DNA of 64,000 nt from the human T2T-CHM13v2.0 reference genome, Homo sapiens (GCF_009914755.1 NC_060944.1), one strand, 5' to 3'; numbered from the stretch's first letter, positions 31,014 to 47,000 are shown. A program made the numbers and translations. Notes: generated from the sequence alone by a model not told the origin.

Positions 31014-33286
31014 TCAGCGGGTACAAGAAGAGGAAGCGGCTCGCTTAGGATGGAGGCAGCTGCATTGAAGGTGAGTGATGCCATCGGGGTTGCCAGGGGT
31101 TGAGGACCCATCTGGGCGCTCGGTTGAGGCACTTAGAGTGCAGGACGAGCTCCCAGGCCGAAGCTGCACCTGCACCTGCGGGGGCGGGTGGGGCGATGAG
31201 CAGACCCTCTCCATTTCCCGCCTCGGATGTTCCCATGGGAAGTCACAGCCCTAGTTACAGCCCCATCCCTACCCCCATTTTCCAGGTAGGGTCCTACAGA
31301 CCCGAGGGTGCTAGAAGTGTCAGAGGCAGAGCTGGGACTGGAGGGAGTGTGGGAAGGGCTGTCTGGAGGGGACTGGAGGGCGTGCTTCTTGGCTGGAGTG
31401 GAAGGAGTGACTCACGTCCGCCATGATGAGCTGCTCCTTGGGGTGCTGTGTGGGGCCCGGGTCCTCCTCACCGAAGCACAGACAGATCTGGTACTTTGGG
31501 TCCGGTGACCATCCTGCAGGTGGGCACACAATTATACGACACTGAGACTATAGGGACTGGGCAAGAACTAGGCAACCCACTGGTGCCCATCTTGTGCTCA
31601 TTTCCCATGCCCAAGTCCTGTAAGCCCACATCCCATTGTGTGCCTGTACCCTAGGCCCACTTCCACGTTCCTATGCCTGTCCCATGTCCCACATCTGTGC
31701 CCACTTCCAGGTCTTATGTCTCTTCCTTGGCCCCTATGCCCACCCCATGCCTTTATGCCCAACCCATGCCCACTGCCACTCACCTATACCTATCTCGTGC
31801 TTGGTGCACCTCACATCCACCTTATGCCCTAAGCCAACACATGTACCGAAGCCCTATTCTTATGCTGCACACCCAACGCCTCAAGCCTTCTCCATGCCAG
31901 CACCCCATATACGCCTGTATCCGTATATGTGCCCCCAGCCCTCCTGGTGCCTGTATTCTTTCCCATCCCTGGTGCTTTTGTGCCATATTCTTTGTGTCAA
32001 TGTCCACTTCATGCCCAGCACCCTTAGGCCCATCCCCCTGGGCCTGCATTTAATGTGCCCACTCTCCTCTGTTCATGTTCCTTTGCCCACCGCGTCCTTA
32101 TGCCCCCGTTCCCACGCCACTCTGTTCCACTCCTCCAGCCGTCCTACCGCCTGGAGGAAGCCGCGTGTGTTCAGCAGGTGGCAGGTGCGCCTGCGCTCCA
32201 CCTTGTTGGGCTGCGCCAGTACAGGCCCTGGCACAGGCGCTTGGTGAACACGCCCTCCGGAGCCACCCAGAGCTGCACACCGCGCTCCAGGTGAGGCGGC
32301 AGGCCCTGCAACACGTGGGCGCTGGGCAGTGGGTCGGGGAAGCGAACCTGCTGCAACGTGAGGTGGCGGCCCCAGCAGGCGCTCGGCGGCCGCCCGCGGA
32401 CTCAGACGACAGCGCTGGGCTGTGCGCCCGGTGGCTTCGCGCACCAGCGCTGCGGAGAGAAGAGCCACACGTGCAGCCAGCAGGCTGTGGGGCGAGAGAG
32501 GGTGCACGGGCTGGACGTGGGCGGCGCTAGCTCCCCTCGCCTTCTTACCCTCCCCTTCAAACTCTGCCGGACCCAGAGGTCGTCCCAGCCTCTACCTCGG
32601 AAATTTTGGGTGCTCTCTCCCTATCAGTGATGATAAGAATTCTAGTAATAATAGTAGTAAACAATAGCTTCCAGTATAAACGAACTGATAGTCGAGCTCT
32701 GCGGTTAAAAGCTGGGGCCATCTGTACAGTGAGGGCATGACCCTCCCAGCAAATCTTCTGGGATTCTAGGAGCTTCCTCCCAGCAAAGATTTTGATGCAG
32801 GTAGAAATAACCATAACAGCGACAATAACAACAACCTAGCAGCGTCTCATGAGAAACCAGCAATCCTGCTCAGTGGTTAGGGTTGTGGGCTCTGCAGCCA
32901 GGCCCTCGGATTCTAGTCTATCACTGCCACTTAGGAGCTTTCCCAGGGTTACCAGCTGTGTGACCTCAGGCAAGGTTCTTAACCTCTGTGTCCTGGTTTG
33001 GGCATATGTAAAATGGGAATAATAGCAGCATCTGGGGGCTGTGGGGAGCTTGGAAGGGTGCCTGGCATAAACTAAGCCCTCAGGAAATGTTGACTGTTGT
33101 GGCTATTATTGGGAGCCTGGGCTGGGTGCTTTGGGTGGGAGAGAGAGGTGGGCTGGCCCCACCCCGCGGCCGTCCCCAGTTCAGCACACTGGTCGGAGGG
33201 GAGGGGATTTCGATTCCTTACCAGGTTGCTGAAGTCATCGGAGGGCATTGGGCACCAGAGGTTTTTGAGGTCCTATGTCTGGCACC
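31014..33286 (-). CDS. DUSP15: Alternative 3' coding exons of the long (295 aa) DUSP15 isoform: 33222-33286, 32348-32484, 31416-31513, 31014-31175
   Basis: Each internal exon is flanked by AG/GT. 426 nt (MTEG start to exon 6) + 65 + 137 + 98 + 162 = 888 nt, an open frame ending ...HPKRAASSSCTR*, matching my recollection of the 295-aa DUSP15 sequence. Confidence 0.8.
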
Positions 33287-44011: not shown

Positions 44012-47000
44012 TCACTTGCCGCCCTTGCGGGACAGACACCGGGGGAGGCAAGAGAAAGTCTGCTTGACGCGCGCCAGCAGCGGCAGCGGCCGGTGGGCTT
44101 CCCGGGGCGTGCGCGGCACCAGGCGCTGCAGGGTTCCCTCGGAGGCTGCTGAGTGCGGCCCGGCGGAGGAGGCCGAGGTCGCGGAGCCCTGCCGGCAGCG
44201 CTTGCACAGCGGCAGCAGCGCGCGCAACTCCTCCTCGTCGCGGAAGGGGCTCTCGCCGAAGCGCTCCTCCAGCTGCCGGCGAAGCTGGGGTGGGCGGGTG
44301 AGGTGGGCGGGGTCAAGGCCGGCCGCGGGGCGGGGTCAAGGCAGCCGGCCCCGCCCCCACCCTCCCGACCTTCGCCCTTCTCCGAGCGTCCCACACCTCG
44401 CTGAGCCCCTCCCTTCCTGAGCGTCTTCTTTGCCTCCCTTCTCCGGGGTTTCCATCCCCTCACTGAGTCCCTCTTCCCTTCTAGGAGGCCCCTCCCTCTC
44501 CCTGACCCCTCTTCCCCCTTTGACACGCCAGCTTCCAGACCTGCTAAAGTGACCCCCAGGCGCCCAGCGGGGATCACTCCTCCCGCTTTGCACTTCTGGG
44601 TAACTCCTCCCACTTTGCACCTCTGTGCTCACAACCCCATTCCCACAGATTTCTTCCTTGCCCGACTCTTTCCCAACGCCGTGCTGCAGATGAGCCTCTG
44701 GGTACCGCCCTCAACCTGCTGAGAGCCCTCCCCCTCTCATCCTTTGTTCCCAGGGAGGCTTAGTTCCTGACATTTCTACGTAGCATCTGCCCGAGAGGTA
44801 TAAGAGGGAAACTGCTGTGGTCTCATCAAGGACACAGGGATGGAGTAGGACATGGACAATTCTCCCCGATGGGGTCAAACACTCAAATCCTTCAGGTTCC
44901 AGCCAGGTAGGGCAGGCAGTGGGGAGGGCTGGAAGACCTGGTCAAATGGAAGGGCCCGCACTGATCTAAAGGCATTCAAATTCTAAATTGAAAAAGAAAA
45001 CACCTGGCTGTCTAACAAAATACACCTAGGAGGTGGATTAGCTCAAAGGCCATGAGTTTGAGACCCTAGAAAAATCCGGGTCTGAGGCACAGGCTAAAAA
45101 TGTTCCAATCAGTGATCAGTTCGAGTGGGAAGAAGGATCTCCCACCCCTGGCCCAACCCAGCCCTTGACCCCATCCCTACCTTCTGGGAACTGGCCCAGC
45201 CAAACTCTTCAAGCTGCTGCCTAAAGCCTGGGTTGGGGTTGGCGATGGGCCTGGTGGCCTTGATGGCTTCAAGCACGTCCCGCCAGCCTAGCCCCGTCAC
45301 AGTCATCACATACGCTGTCACAATCGTGGTGCTGCGAGAGATGCCTGCAAAGCTGGGATCCCCAACAACCCCTCAGGCTTCAAGTAAGATCCAATGTCCT
45401 CCATGCCCCCAGGCACCCCACCCTGCTTCAACTCCCCCACCCTTGCCTCCTGAGCTCCAACCATAAGGGACCTGTCAGGACTTGCCATCCCACCTCCAGG
45501 CCTTTGCCATGCTGTTCCCTCTGTCTAGAGCATCCCCTGGGTTCTCCCACATCAAAAGCCTGAGTGAAACACCATTCATTCAGTCAATAAATATGTCCTG
45601 AGCATCTGTTCTTTTTCAGGCACTGGGGATGTAGCGGGTATAAAACAGGCATGGTCTTTGCTGTCCTGGAGCTTACAGTATGGCTGGGGGGGGGGGACAG
45701 ACGTTGATCAGATAATCAATTCCAGGTGGTGATAATAGCTTTGAGGATGAGTCTGGGGGCTAGGAGATCCACATAGGAAGAGGTATTAATCTATAGGTGG
45801 GGTGGGGTTAGGGAAGGGGTTCCCAAGGAATAGATATCAATGAAATTTGAAAGATGAATAAGGGTTAGTCAGGAACCTTCTGGGCAGTGTGTACAAAGAC
45901 CATGAGGCATAAGCCTCGTAGATTTGGAGGATGGGGAGGAGGTTAGTACAGCTGGAAAGGGGAAGGAGGGAGAGGGTGGGAAATGAGGCTTGGGAAACCG
46001 GCCTCCTTGCTGGGCCTCCAGCAGAGCCAGCTTGAGCCTGGATAGGATGGGCCTTCAGTGAGAAGTTAAGGAATGAATGACATCAACTGAGCGAGGGGCA
46101 CCTGGGAAGACCCAGAATTCCTGTCTCCCAGCTCGGGGTTCCCCACTGCCCTGCACCATCACCTCCAAGGCCTGGAGGGGAGGAGGGAGGCCCAGAACTA
46201 CTGGAGGGTGATGAGCTACCTCCATGACCTCACCTATCCCTCCCAACAGTCCCATCAGGTCAGCTTTCTTTTCCGCATTTTACAGATGAGGACATTGAGT
46301 CTCAGAGAGAAACAGCTACTTGGCTATGGCCACACAGCTCATAAGGAATAGAGTCCCGGGTTGGCCTCTCTCCAGTGAATGGTGGGCCCTCAGGCACTGT
46401 GACAGGCTGGAGAAGATCCCTCACAGGTCCAACCTTCCCACAGGGGGAGTGTGTGTTCAGCAGAGGGCACAGCCACTTCCTTCCTCCCCCACCTTATCCC
46501 CCTCCGCTTAACTCACCAGTGCACAAGGCAGTTCCCCCCATTAAGGCGGCAGCAGTGGATGAAGTTGATACATTCTTTGAAGTGCTTTTTGCTAGAGGAG
46601 AAAGCAATAGGGTAGGGAGCACTGCAGGGCAGACCTCTCAGGAGTTGTTCCGCCCCCACCCCAATTACAGGATAGCAAGGGACATAGAGCCCTGGGGTCC
46701 CCAGGTCAGCCAGCACATGCAGTGAATATGGGCCAGTACTTAGTATGAGCTGGAGGTGTGTTTGTGTGAAGCAAGAATGGTGGCATTTCAGGCAGTGAGA
46801 GAGACCAGTCAGGACAAATCTCACCATCTAGGCAGGAGCACTCCTCCTGTGGACCCTGTTTTCATGTTGGGTTTATTGTGGCCTTTCAGAGAAATGGGAG
46901 GGAGGAAACACAGGGGTCCCACTCCTCTGGGGTCTGCAATCAGAGCACCTGGGCACAATGATGGGCAGCAGCAGGCTGGGAGCAAGATTCCCAAGGGGCA

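What the first reader, a model, noticed from the sequence alone, without database searches (positions are those of the whole stretch)
31014..45352. The long DUSP15 isoform is a phosphatase-IRF pseudogene chimera
Seen: DUSP15 exon 6 (donor at 45181) can skip its normal last exon and splice about 12 kb downstream to 33286-33222, 32484-32348, 31513-31416 and 31175-31014, giving an uninterrupted 888-nt ORF (295 aa with the MTEG start) ending GARHRTSK...PKYQICLCFGEEDPGPTQHPKEQLIMADV...SSSCTR*. These four exons are the 3' exons of the IRF pseudogene. Two tail segments (AALVREATGRTAQRCRLSP and PKYQICLCFGEE...LIMADV) are in the ancestral IAD frame and the rest are off-frame. From recall, this 295-aa sequence is a curated DUSP15 isoform whose tail is treated as featureless. 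Inference: a lineage-specific read-through has recruited dead-gene exons, making either a new fusion tail (IAD fragments on a DUSP22-like phosphatase) or annotation noise mistaken for a principal isoform.
Basis: partly seen in the sequence, partly recalled or inferred. Interest (0 to 1): 0.88.

Follow-up and report, generated by a model that had tools for sequence, protein, structure and literature searches.

The report
DUSP15 long isoform borrows dead IRF10 exons
The 295-residue form of the human phosphatase DUSP15 gets its last 153 residues by splicing into the decayed remains of the neighbouring IRF10 gene, so its tail is most likely a by-product of read-through and not a working domain.

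Summary
DUSP15 exon 6 joined to 33286-33222, 32484-32348, 31513-31416 and 31175-31014 (all AG/GT) gives an open 888-nt ORF. With the MTEG start at 53197 it translates letter for letter to a database protein named human DUSP15, 295 aa.

The tail exons lie inside a dead, single-copy IRF10 gene between DUSP15 and FOXS1. It shows Pfam IRF and IAD matches, several frameshifts, three in-frame stops and an Alu-disrupted DNA-binding exon. In a tree it falls inside the mammalian IRF10 clade.

Three tail segments, about 84 of 153 residues, are in the ancestral IRF10 frame. Two of the splice sites are cryptic sites inside old IRF10 exons, and together they remove the core of the IAD.

The whole protein scores only 16.2 bits against the Pfam IAD model (cut-off 27), yet it matches IRF10 orthologues at up to 75 bits.

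The tail occurs only in primate DUSP15 models, and none of four non-human models follows the human frame. The usual 90-residue C-terminus is conserved across mammals.

Most likely this is a read-through chimera with an incidental ORF. RNA, peptide and primate-genome evidence could not be checked. I found no paper making the link.

The parts
53186..53197 (-). Coding part of the alternative first exon (ATG ACC GAA GGG = MTEG), followed by a GT donor
   Evidence: the chain starting here translates exactly to P0123 (295 aa).
45181..45352 (-). DUSP15 exon 6, the last exon shared by both isoforms. Its donor AAG|GTAGGG joins either the usual last exon or the IRF10-derived exons. It ends in phase 0.
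   Evidence: hub RefSeq table.
43686..44284 (-). Usual DUSP15 terminal exon, skipped in the long isoform. It encodes a 90-aa C-terminus conserved across mammals. An ATTAAA signal starts at 43705.
   Evidence: poly(A) signal; 80/90, 79/90, 76/89 and 71/90 identity to P0034, P0133, P0073 and P0137.
40751..40969 (-). IRF10 pseudogene, first DNA-binding-domain exon. It lies 2.7 kb downstream of the DUSP15 3' end.
   Evidence: PF00605 E=1.1e-12; 89% identity to colugo IRF10 over 44 aa; distance 2717 bases.
35466..35590 (-). IRF10 pseudogene, second DNA-binding-domain exon, first part. A frameshift moves it from frame -1 to frame -3.
35132..35443 (.). Alu insertion. Together with the masked repeat at 34583-34921 it separates the two parts of that exon.
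   Evidence: Alu core motif at 35151; hub repeat mask; (homology resumes at 34569).
34399..34569 (-). IRF10 pseudogene, end of the DNA-binding domain and start of the linker, with an in-frame stop
   Evidence: frame -2, 'GIV*IEG'.
33397..33507 (-). IRF10 linker exon, used only in the 332-aa isoform X2. The first ~30 codons are in the ancestral frame, and the frame shifts near the 3' end.
33222..33286 (-). Tail exon 1 (GARHRTSK...MTSAT), read in frame -1. The ancestral IRF10 frame is -3 and carries a TAG.
32348..32484 (-). Tail exon 2. The first ~11 codons are off-frame. The next 34 codons (32453-32352) are in the ancestral IAD frame. It ends at the cryptic donor CAG|GTTCGC.
32147..32347 (-). 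Rest of the ancestral IAD exon, spliced out of the long isoform. It holds the IAD core (Pfam profile positions 42-132) and two further frameshifts.
   Evidence: PF10401 E=1.4e-10. IRF4 IAD 5bvi, E=1.5e-9..
31514..31540 (-). Start of the next ancestral IAD exon (*LCAHLQDGH, with a TAA). It lies upstream of the cryptic acceptor and is excluded from the isoform. The upper boundary is approximate.
31416..31513 (-). Tail exon 3. After a 1-base frame change following DGH, 30 codons (PDPKYQICLCFGEE...LIMAD) are in the ancestral IAD frame.
   Evidence: E=0.0013. P0123 residues 212-245 match PF10401 positions 137-169..
31014..31175 (-). Coding part of the last exon, including the TGA stop. The first ~17 codons are off-frame (the ancestral frame is -2). 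19 codons (31124-31068) are in the ancestral frame. The rest has no IRF10 counterpart.
30247..31013 (-). 3' untranslated region of the long isoform. AATAAA lies at 30271-30266, 24 bases before the annotated end. It is probably the old IRF10 poly(A) site (inference).
   Evidence: hub table (exon 30247-31175).

Best explanation
DUSP15 and the remains of IRF10 lie head to tail on the minus strand, 2.7 kb apart. IRF10 is a unitary pseudogene here: it is dead, intron-containing and single-copy.

When a DUSP15 pre-mRNA is not ended at its usual terminal exon (weak ATTAAA signal), the exon 6 donor splices about 12 kb downstream into surviving splice sites of the IRF10 remnant. The transcript then ends at a strong AATAAA that was probably IRF10's own.

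Two of the sites used are cryptic sites inside old IRF10 coding exons (donor 32348, acceptor 31513). Together they cut out the core of the IRF association domain (IAD).

The reading frame handed over by DUSP15 happens to stay open for 153 codons. About 84 of them fall back into the old IRF10 frame because of IRF10's own frameshifts. The other ~69 are out of frame in G+C-rich DNA.

The product is an intact phosphatase domain that has lost its conserved 90-residue C-terminus and gained a patchwork tail holding about 40% of an IAD in two separated pieces. That is too little to form the domain. I read the tail as an incidental, probably neutral by-product of read-through, not as a selected fusion.

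Shown: the anatomy, the IRF10 origin, the frames and the lack of collinear tails in other primate models. Inferred: the read-through mechanism, low abundance and lack of function.
For: Anatomy and ORF:
- Splice sites and ORF were checked, with an exact match to P0123 and P0121.

IRF10 origin:
- Pfam IRF gives E=1.1e-12 at 40685-40927, and Pfam IAD gives E=1.4e-10 at 32171-32401.
- The closest solved structure is the IRF4 IAD, E=1.5e-9.
- Frame-corrected pieces (185 aa, X at breaks) are 71-78% identical to 8 mammalian IRF10 proteins, 50-51% to 5 fish IRF10, 48% to human IRF4, 41% to IRF8 and 41% to IRF9.
- In a 17-row tree the pieces fall inside the mammalian IRF10 clade (support 99/98). Their terminal branch is 0.27 against a median of 0.058.
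- A search of the window's own genome with colugo IRF10 finds this locus plus the nine other IRF loci, and no second IRF10-like copy.
- The 2.5-kb tail region is unique in that genome.

Dead gene:
- Frame switches, three in-frame stops and an Alu insertion are shown.

The tail is IRF10-derived but is not an IAD:
- The tail alone hits bovine IRF10 at E=8.3e-11 and a marmoset IAD-only model at 2e-6.
- BLASTP of P0123 against colugo IRF10 gives two matches, 1e-14 and 2e-10.
- Pfam IAD scores only 16.2 bits against a cut-off of 27.
- Colugo IAD residues 263-348, 86 of 173, have no counterpart in the tail.

No sign of conservation:
- In 1.84 billion cluster representatives, only 1 of the 150 listed hits (P0126, a primate model) covers residues 1-295. 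Most of the others match only the phosphatase domain, and none reaches beyond about residue 189.
- Four non-human primate models match the human head at 131-141 of 142 positions but the tail at only 78-120 of 153, with 11-40 gap positions.
- None of the four enters tail exon 2 in the human frame.
- The usual C-terminus is 71-80 of 90 identical in other mammals.

General background:
Against: - The ORF is open in only 1 of 3 entry phases, and only 2.4% of windows of the same length on this strand are open.
- The X2 variant, with an extra IRF10 exon, is open as well.
- The stop codon lies in the last exon, so by the usual rule the mRNA should escape nonsense-mediated decay.
- All junctions are canonical, and RefSeq carries several transcripts with these exons (hub table).
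- No expression, ribosome-profiling, proteomic or population data could be consulted, so low abundance and lack of function are inferred, not shown.
- The non-human primate proteins carry only UniRef as their source and look like automated models. Their breaks may partly reflect how the models were built and not real frame differences.
Confidence: 0.72

Rival explanations
1. The tail is a selected, ape- or human-specific new C-terminal module. The phosphatase has swapped its conserved C-terminus for a tail carrying IAD strands. That tail changes its localisation, stability or partners, for example by contacting IRF-family or IRF-binding proteins.
For: - The frame is open in 1 of 3 phases, against a 2.4% background.
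- The X2 variant is also open.
- The stop is in the last exon.
- About 55% of the tail is real IRF10 sequence.
- Where gibbon, Old World and New World monkey models read 'WLFSGAALV' without a break, human DNA has a frame change, and that change is what places the DUSP15 frame in the IRF10 frame. An ape-specific origin is therefore possible.
Against: - Half of the IAD, including its core, is spliced out, and the Pfam score is below the cut-off.
- 69% of tail residues are of the disorder-promoting kind, only 18% are V, I, L, M, F, W or Y, and there are 9 cysteines.
- None of 4 non-human primate models is collinear with the human tail.
- RefSeq selects the 235-aa form (hub table), whose C-terminus is conserved.
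- The MTEG form also lacks the MGNG N-terminus. From recall (Alonso et al. 2004, not seen), that N-terminus carries the myristoylation site.
Confidence: 0.1
2. The transcript models are artefacts or extremely rare splicing noise, for example a few old cDNA clones. No meaningful amount of this mRNA or protein exists, and the 295-aa entry persists only through database inheritance.
For: - No paper in the searched library mentions the isoform's tail peptide (0 papers).
- No paper discusses this isoform.
- The review read says read-through transcripts are generally weak.
- Outside human, the tail appears only in proteins whose sole source is UniRef.
Against: - Every junction is AG/GT with good polypyrimidine tracts.
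- A canonical AATAAA sits 24 bases before the annotated 3' end.
- RefSeq annotates six different exons in this stretch, including alternative forms (hub table).
- The region is unique in the genome, so mis-mapping from a paralogue is excluded.
Confidence: 0.15
3. The resemblance of the tail to IRF proteins is chance or compositional, and the exons are not derived from an IRF gene.
For: - Pfam IAD is below its cut-off on the whole protein.
- The tail is G+C-rich and rich in Ala, Pro and Arg.
Against: - The tail gives E=8.3e-11 to bovine IRF10 in a database of 5.8 billion proteins.
- phmmer gives 60-75 bits for the 40 best-scoring IRF10 orthologues shown, out of 123 IRF proteins searched.
- The flanking DNA holds the rest of the IAD and the DNA-binding domain in the right order.
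- The position between DUSP15 and FOXS1 is where IRF10 lies in other vertebrates (passages read in PMC1634998).
Confidence: 0.01

Closest known systems
Functional IRF10 of other mammals (annotated 'IRF4-like'; for example colugo P0013 at 420 aa, mouse lemur P0016, cow P0128)
   Same: - Same position next to DUSP15.
- The exon order is the same: DNA-binding domain, linker, IAD.
- 71-78% identity over 185 frame-corrected residues.
- Same clade in the tree.
   Different: - The human copy has several frameshifts, three in-frame stops and an Alu-disrupted exon.
- Its terminal branch is about five times the median length.
- Its 3' exons are annotated as DUSP15 exons, and the hub's RefSeq table has no separate pseudogene row for it.
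Published accounts of human IRF10 loss
   Same: - Wotton and Shimeld 2006 (PMC1634998, passages read) place 'IRF10' between DUSP15 and FOXS1 on human chromosome 20.
- Huang et al. [quoted passage not shown]
- PMC12220609 (passages read) says humans lack a functional IRF10 and cites Li et al. 2023 for pseudogenisation in mammals.
   Different: - None of the passages I read connects the remnant with the DUSP15 long isoform.
- Only 2 papers in the library hold both names, and neither makes the link.
- Li et al. 2023 and Nehyba et al. 2002 and 2009 are not held, so I cannot say whether they mention it.
Read-through (conjoined, transcription-induced chimeric) transcripts between neighbouring same-strand genes
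   Same: - The penultimate donor of the upstream gene skips its terminal exon and joins internal acceptors of the downstream gene.
- The intergenic distance is short, 2.7 kb.
- The general description, including weak expression and unclear function, is in PMC7116059 (passages read).
   Different: - The downstream partner is a dead gene.
- The reading frame is a mosaic of its old frame and other frames.
- Two junctions use cryptic sites inside old coding exons.
- The product is filed under the upstream gene's name and not as a separate read-through gene.
DUSP22-IRF4 neighbour pair on chromosome 6, the paralogous region
   Same: The same ancestral DUSP-IRF-FOX arrangement (PMC1634998). DUSP22 is the closest solved relative of the DUSP15 head after DUSP15 itself.
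   Different: IRF4 is intact. I know of no DUSP22-IRF4 read-through protein (recall, not searched).
DUSP15 235-aa form (VHY; RefSeq-selected NM_080611.5; crystal structure 1yz4 of the catalytic domain)
   Same: Residues encoded by exons 2-6 are identical. The phosphatase domain is intact in both (Pfam DSPc 2.5e-31; 1yz4 at 6.1e-93).
   Different: The 235-aa form ends with a 90-residue C-terminus conserved across mammals. The long form replaces it with the IRF10-derived tail.

Membership tests
IRF10 (IRF4 subfamily) unitary pseudogene | Recognisable IRF DNA-binding domain and IAD, in gene order on one strand, with introns | tested here: met
   PF00605 E=1.1e-12 at 40685-40927. PF10401 E=1.4e-10 at 32171-32401, with weaker pieces nearby. 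The ordered tblastn map runs from 40969 down to 31068.
IRF10 (IRF4 subfamily) unitary pseudogene | Orthology to IRF10 and not to IRF4, IRF8 or IRF9 | tested here: met
   71-78% identity to mammalian IRF10 against 48%, 41% and 41% to human IRF4, IRF8 and IRF9. Inside the mammalian IRF10 clade at 99/98; the IRF10 clade as a whole has 89/84. The alignment is short (184 columns) and the root was placed at the midpoint only.
IRF10 (IRF4 subfamily) unitary pseudogene | Conserved position between DUSP15 and FOXS1 | tested here: met
   Hub gene table for this window; PMC1634998 and PMC2885996 passages.
IRF10 (IRF4 subfamily) unitary pseudogene | Disabling lesions | tested here: met
   Frame switches in the DNA-binding exon, linker exon, both IAD exons and last exon. 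In-frame TAG (33286-33222 exon), TAA (about 31535) and a stop at about 34500. An Alu lies at 35132-35443.
IRF10 (IRF4 subfamily) unitary pseudogene | No intact copy elsewhere in the genome (unitary, not duplicated or processed) | tested here: met
   The own-genome search with colugo IRF10 finds chr20 (this locus) plus loci on chr6, 16, 14, 7, 1, 4, 11, 19 and 5. I assign those to IRF4, 8, 9, 5, 6, 2, 7, 3 and 1 from recall of their chromosomes. The locus keeps its introns.
Read-through (conjoined) transcript | Two adjacent genes on the same strand, with upstream exons spliced to downstream-gene exons and the upstream terminal exon skipped | tested here: met
   The geometry and splice sites are verified in the sequence. 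The exons are annotated by RefSeq (hub table).
Read-through (conjoined) transcript | Direct RNA evidence for the junctions, and their abundance | not testable with these tools
   No RNA-seq or cDNA resource is on hand. Only the RefSeq annotation and the existence of the protein records P0121-P0123.
IRF association domain (Pfam PF10401) as a domain of the long isoform | Score at or above the Pfam gathering cut-off | tested here: not met
   P0123: 16.2 bits, E=0.0094, cut-off 27, residues 212-245 only.
IRF association domain (Pfam PF10401) as a domain of the long isoform | Coverage of the domain core | tested here: not met
   The colugo IAD spans residues 216-388. The tail keeps counterparts of about 225-262 and 349-379. 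Residues 263-348, 86 of 173, are spliced out.
Dual-specificity phosphatase (Pfam DSPc PF00782) | Complete catalytic domain | tested here: met
   P0123 residues 9-135 match profile positions 1-130 of 133, E=2.5e-31. 1yz4 matches at E=6.1e-93.

The most novel reading that the evidence does not exclude
A frame change that arose after the gibbon split put the DUSP15 reading frame into the old IRF10 frame. This created an ape- or human-specific phosphatase isoform whose tail carries two real IAD segments. The isoform is translated in some tissue and has acquired a role of its own, such as altered localisation or turnover, or contact with partners of IRF proteins. That would be a dead immune gene partly 'resurrected' as the tail of its neighbour.
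Probability: 0.07. Interest if true: 0.6.

Novelty: new member of a known kind. Interest (0 to 1): 0.35.

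Why it matters
- It explains a database oddity. A 295-aa protein filed as human DUSP15 has a 153-residue tail with no annotated domain, and that tail is the wreck of IRF10.
- Users of this sequence for structure prediction, variant interpretation or isoform-level expression should know three things. 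The tail is not a conserved part of DUSP15. Variants in 31014-33507 probably do not affect the main protein. The 235-aa form carries the conserved C-terminus.
- In the RefSeq table supplied, the human IRF10 remnant has no row of its own and is hidden inside the DUSP15 gene model.
- It is a clean, datable example of how a unitary pseudogene's splice sites and poly(A) site can go on capturing transcripts from the gene upstream.
- It does not open a major biological question unless the tail proves to be translated and selected.

Tried and rejected
- **Structure prediction of P0123.** No model exists, so there is no fold evidence for or against a disordered tail.
- **First alignment with IRF10 orthologues (A1).** It scattered the IRF10 rows across the tail, so I dropped it.
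- **ESM Atlas look-alikes of the tail.** The best score was 0.79, which the tool itself calls a lead at most. Uninformative.
- **phmmer of the frame -3 ORF 32073-32591 against solved structures.** Only chance-level hits, with IRF4 at E=1.3. The neighbouring frame gave the real IRF4 match.
- **Papers not held.** Li et al. 2023, Nehyba et al. 2002 and Nehyba et al. 2009.
- **Literature searches that found no link between the isoform and IRF10.**
  - 'DUSP15' + 'IRF10': 2 papers.
  - 'IRF10' + 'pseudogene' + 'human': 6 papers.
  - 'DUSP15' + 'pseudogene': 18 papers, of which I saw only the listing of 15.
  - 'IRF10' + 'primates' + 'lost': 4 papers.
  - 'DUSP15' + 'isoform' + 'VHY': 7 papers.
  - One search was set too loosely (82,272 papers) and is of no use.
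  - The chimeric-pseudogene paper PMC13122177 does not mention DUSP15 or IRF in its main text; its supplements were not opened.
- **Rfam on 27000-54000.** No match.
- **Tandem repeats.** Only microsatellites outside the exons.
- **Primate genome comparison.** No primate genome other than the window's own assembly is held, so ORF conservation could only be judged from five automated protein models.

Full report
**1. The observation**

On the minus strand, DUSP15 exon 6 (45352-45181) ends in phase 0 at the donor AAG|GTAGGG. Exons 33286-33222, 32484-32348, 31513-31416 and 31175-31014 each have an AG acceptor, and the first three have a GT donor.

Joined to the canonical head, they give an open 897-nt ORF of 298 aa. 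With the alternative first exon (ATG at 53197, MTEG, then a GT donor) the ORF is 888 nt. Its translation is identical to P0123, a 295-aa protein held by NCBI, UniRef, nr and EukProt under the name dual specificity phosphatase 15 [Homo sapiens]. Including exon 33507-33397 gives 999 nt, identical to P0121 (isoform X2, 332 aa).

The hub's RefSeq table lists all of these exons as DUSP15 exons of non-selected transcripts. The selected transcript encodes the 235-aa form.

**2. What the tail exons are**

The stretch from about 40970 down to 31070 holds a decayed IRF gene on the same strand.
- Pfam finds the IRF DNA-binding domain at 40685-40927 (E=1.1e-12).
- Pfam finds the IRF association domain (IAD, PF10401) at 32171-32401 (E=1.4e-10, profile positions 42-108). 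Weaker pieces lie in a second frame of the same exon (positions 107-132) and at 31320-31547 (positions 137-171).
- The nearest solved structure is the IRF4 IAD, 5bvi, E=1.5e-9.

A protein search with the DNA-binding fragment returned mammalian proteins annotated 'IRF4-like', followed by fish IRF10. With the colugo (P0013) and mouse lemur (P0016) proteins, tblastn lays out the whole gene in order.

Frame-corrected pieces of the human locus (185 residues, X at the breaks) compare as follows:

| Compared with | Identity |
|---|---|
| Eight mammalian IRF10 orthologues | 71-78% |
| Five fish IRF10 | 50-51% |
| Human IRF4 | 48% |
| Human IRF8 | 41% |
| Human IRF9 | 41% |

In a maximum-likelihood tree of 17 rows and 184 columns, the human pieces sit inside the mammalian IRF10 clade (support 99/98). 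Their terminal branch is 0.27 against a median of 0.058.

The window's own genome holds no second IRF10-like locus, and the tail region is unique in it.

The position between DUSP15 and FOXS1 is where IRF10 lies in other vertebrates (passages read in PMC1634998 and PMC2885996).

**3. The gene is dead**

The lesions:
- The second DNA-binding exon has a frameshift (35590-35466). An Alu (motif at 35151; masked 35132-35443) and a second masked repeat (34583-34921) separate it from its continuation.
- That continuation (34569-34399) carries an in-frame stop.
- The linker exon changes frame near its 3' end.
- The 33286-33222 exon has a TAG in the IRF10 frame.
- The large IAD exon switches frame three times: -1, -3, -1, -3.
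- The next IAD exon has a TAA and a one-base frame change after DGH.
- The last exon changes frame once.

**4. Frame map of the 153-residue tail**

The DUSP15 frame is -1 in tail exon 1 and -3 in tail exons 2 to 4.
- Tail exon 1 (21 residues): out of the IRF10 frame.
- Tail exon 2: about 11 residues out of frame, then 34 in frame (AALVREATG...PPPHVA).
- Tail exon 3: three residues at the junction, then 30 in frame (PDPKYQICLCFGEE...LIMAD).
- Tail exon 4: about 17 out of frame, then 19 in frame (TERPDG...ITHL), then 17 with no IRF10 counterpart.

About 84 of 153 residues are therefore IRF10 sequence in its own frame. BLASTP of P0123 against colugo IRF10 confirms two significant matches, 1e-14 and 2e-10.

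Homology to IRF10 continues in frame past the donor at 32348 (down to 32151). It also begins upstream of the acceptor at 31513 (from 31531). These two sites are therefore cryptic sites inside old coding exons. Using them removes the counterpart of colugo residues 263-348, which is 86 of the 173 IAD residues.

The other five splice sites coincide with the ends of IRF10 homology. I could not verify them against an orthologue's gene structure.

**5. Is the tail still an IAD?**

No.
- On the whole 295-aa protein, Pfam IAD gives 16.2 bits (E=0.0094, cut-off 27) over residues 212-245 only. The phosphatase domain is complete (E=2.5e-31).
- This explains why the tail looks featureless in domain databases. 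The precomputed Pfam column for P0123 lists only phosphatase families.
- The IRF10 origin is nevertheless clear from closer relatives. The tail alone retrieves bovine IRF10 at E=8.3e-11 from 5.8 billion proteins. It scores 60-75 bits against the 40 best of 123 IRF proteins.
- The tail is 69% A, R, G, Q, S, P, E, K and T, 18% large hydrophobic residues, and has 9 cysteines.
- A structure prediction could not be run.

**6. Is the open frame more than chance, and is it conserved?**

*Chance.* Only one of three entry phases is open. 2.4% of 153-codon windows on this strand (373 of 15240) and 2.5% of shuffles (509 of 20000) are open. More than half of the codons are stop-free by descent, however. 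At the shuffle rate, the remaining ~69 codons would stay open about one time in five (my arithmetic).

*Conservation.*
- Among the 150 best of 22,194 hits in 1.84 billion cluster representatives, only one (a mangabey model, P0126) covers the tail.
- The four non-human primate proteins that carry a similar tail have UniRef as their only source. They match the human head at 131-141 of 142 positions but the tail at only 78-120 of 153, with 11-40 gap positions.
- Mapped without gaps onto the human frames, gibbon and mangabey enter tail exon 2 in frame -1 and capuchin in frame -2. The snub-nosed monkey model omits the start of that exon. None reproduces the human frame there.
- Gibbon, mangabey, marmoset and titi sequences read 'WLFSGAALV' without a break where human DNA changes frame. 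The frame change that aligns DUSP15's frame with IRF10's may therefore be younger than the gibbon split. This inference rests on automated models.
- By contrast, the usual 90-residue C-terminus is 71-80 of 90 identical in four other mammalian proteins.

**7. Mechanism**

The two genes are 2.7 kb apart on one strand.
- The usual terminal exon has an ATTAAA signal.
- The distal end has AATAAA 24 bases before the annotated terminus.
- The pattern is that of a read-through (conjoined) transcript: the penultimate donor of the upstream gene joins internal acceptors of the downstream gene.
- A review of human annotation describes such transcripts as usually weakly expressed and of unclear function (passages read in PMC7116059).

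I therefore read the long isoform as a read-through product that the surviving splice and poly(A) signals of dead IRF10 keep capturing, with an ORF that is open largely by descent and partly by luck.

The stop lies in the last exon, so the mRNA should be stable. Translation cannot be excluded.

The MTEG form also lacks the MGNG N-terminus. From recall, not checked, that N-terminus is the myristoylation site of the 235-aa protein.

**8. What is known**

That humans lack a functional IRF10, and that a remnant sits next to DUSP15, is in print. The 295-aa protein is in the databases.

I found no paper that connects the two. Only two papers in the library hold both gene names, and neither makes the link. 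The tail peptide occurs in none.

Three likely sources are not held, so prior description cannot be excluded.

**9. Verdict**

The finding is correct and tidy, with a corrected frame map. It is a new example of a known kind of event, and it is of practical use for annotation. It does not point to a new mechanism unless the tail proves to be translated and selected.

Noticed in passing
P0034 (697 aa) and P0073 (Galemys pyrenaicus, 1018 aa): Gene models in other mammals fuse a complete DUSP15 (including its usual C-terminus) to a complete IRF10 in one protein. This could be merging by gene predictors. It could also mean that DUSP15-IRF10 read-through predates the death of IRF10.
   Followed up: partly
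P0129 (Callithrix jacchus, 245 aa) and P0130 (Plecturocebus cupreus, 230 aa): New World monkeys have annotated 'IRF4-like' proteins that contain only part of an IAD. They switch among the human frames at places different from the human frameshifts, which suggests independent decay of IRF10 in that lineage. No tarsier, monkey or ape protein was among the 120 best IRF hits, whereas lemurs and colugos have full-length IRF10.
   Followed up: partly
window 31422 (-): The annotated alternative exon 31513-31422 ends at ATG|GCGGAC, a GC donor and not a GT donor. Its use removes two residues (AD) and keeps the frame open for 151 codons.
   Followed up: partly
window 28201-29286 (-): The hub's RefSeq table gives DUSP15 further exons (29286-29158, 28265-28201) beyond the 30247 poly(A) site. 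The last of them overlaps the FOXS1 5' end (28212) by 12 bases. For those transcripts the tail stop codon would lie upstream of splice junctions.
   Followed up: no
window 32073-32591 (-): Frame -3 stays open for 172 codons across the whole old IAD exon and into both flanking introns. Use of the old donor instead of the cryptic one would therefore also leave the DUSP15 frame open.
   Followed up: no
window about 32941-33033: A repeat of about 80 bases in the intron between tail exons 1 and 2 has about 40 scored copies of 76-92% identity across the genome. It looks like an old interspersed repeat; the family was not identified.
   Followed up: no
window 28626-28931, 29051-29095, 36740-36819: An AC-rich compound microsatellite, an (AG)23 run and a 40-base tandem duplication. 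None touches an exon of the finding.
   Followed up: no
window 40685-40927 (-): The first IRF10 DNA-binding exon is the best preserved part of the pseudogene: 89% identity to colugo over 44 residues, in an open 80-codon stretch that includes an ATG. No annotated transcript uses it, according to the part of the exon list shown by the hub.
   Followed up: no
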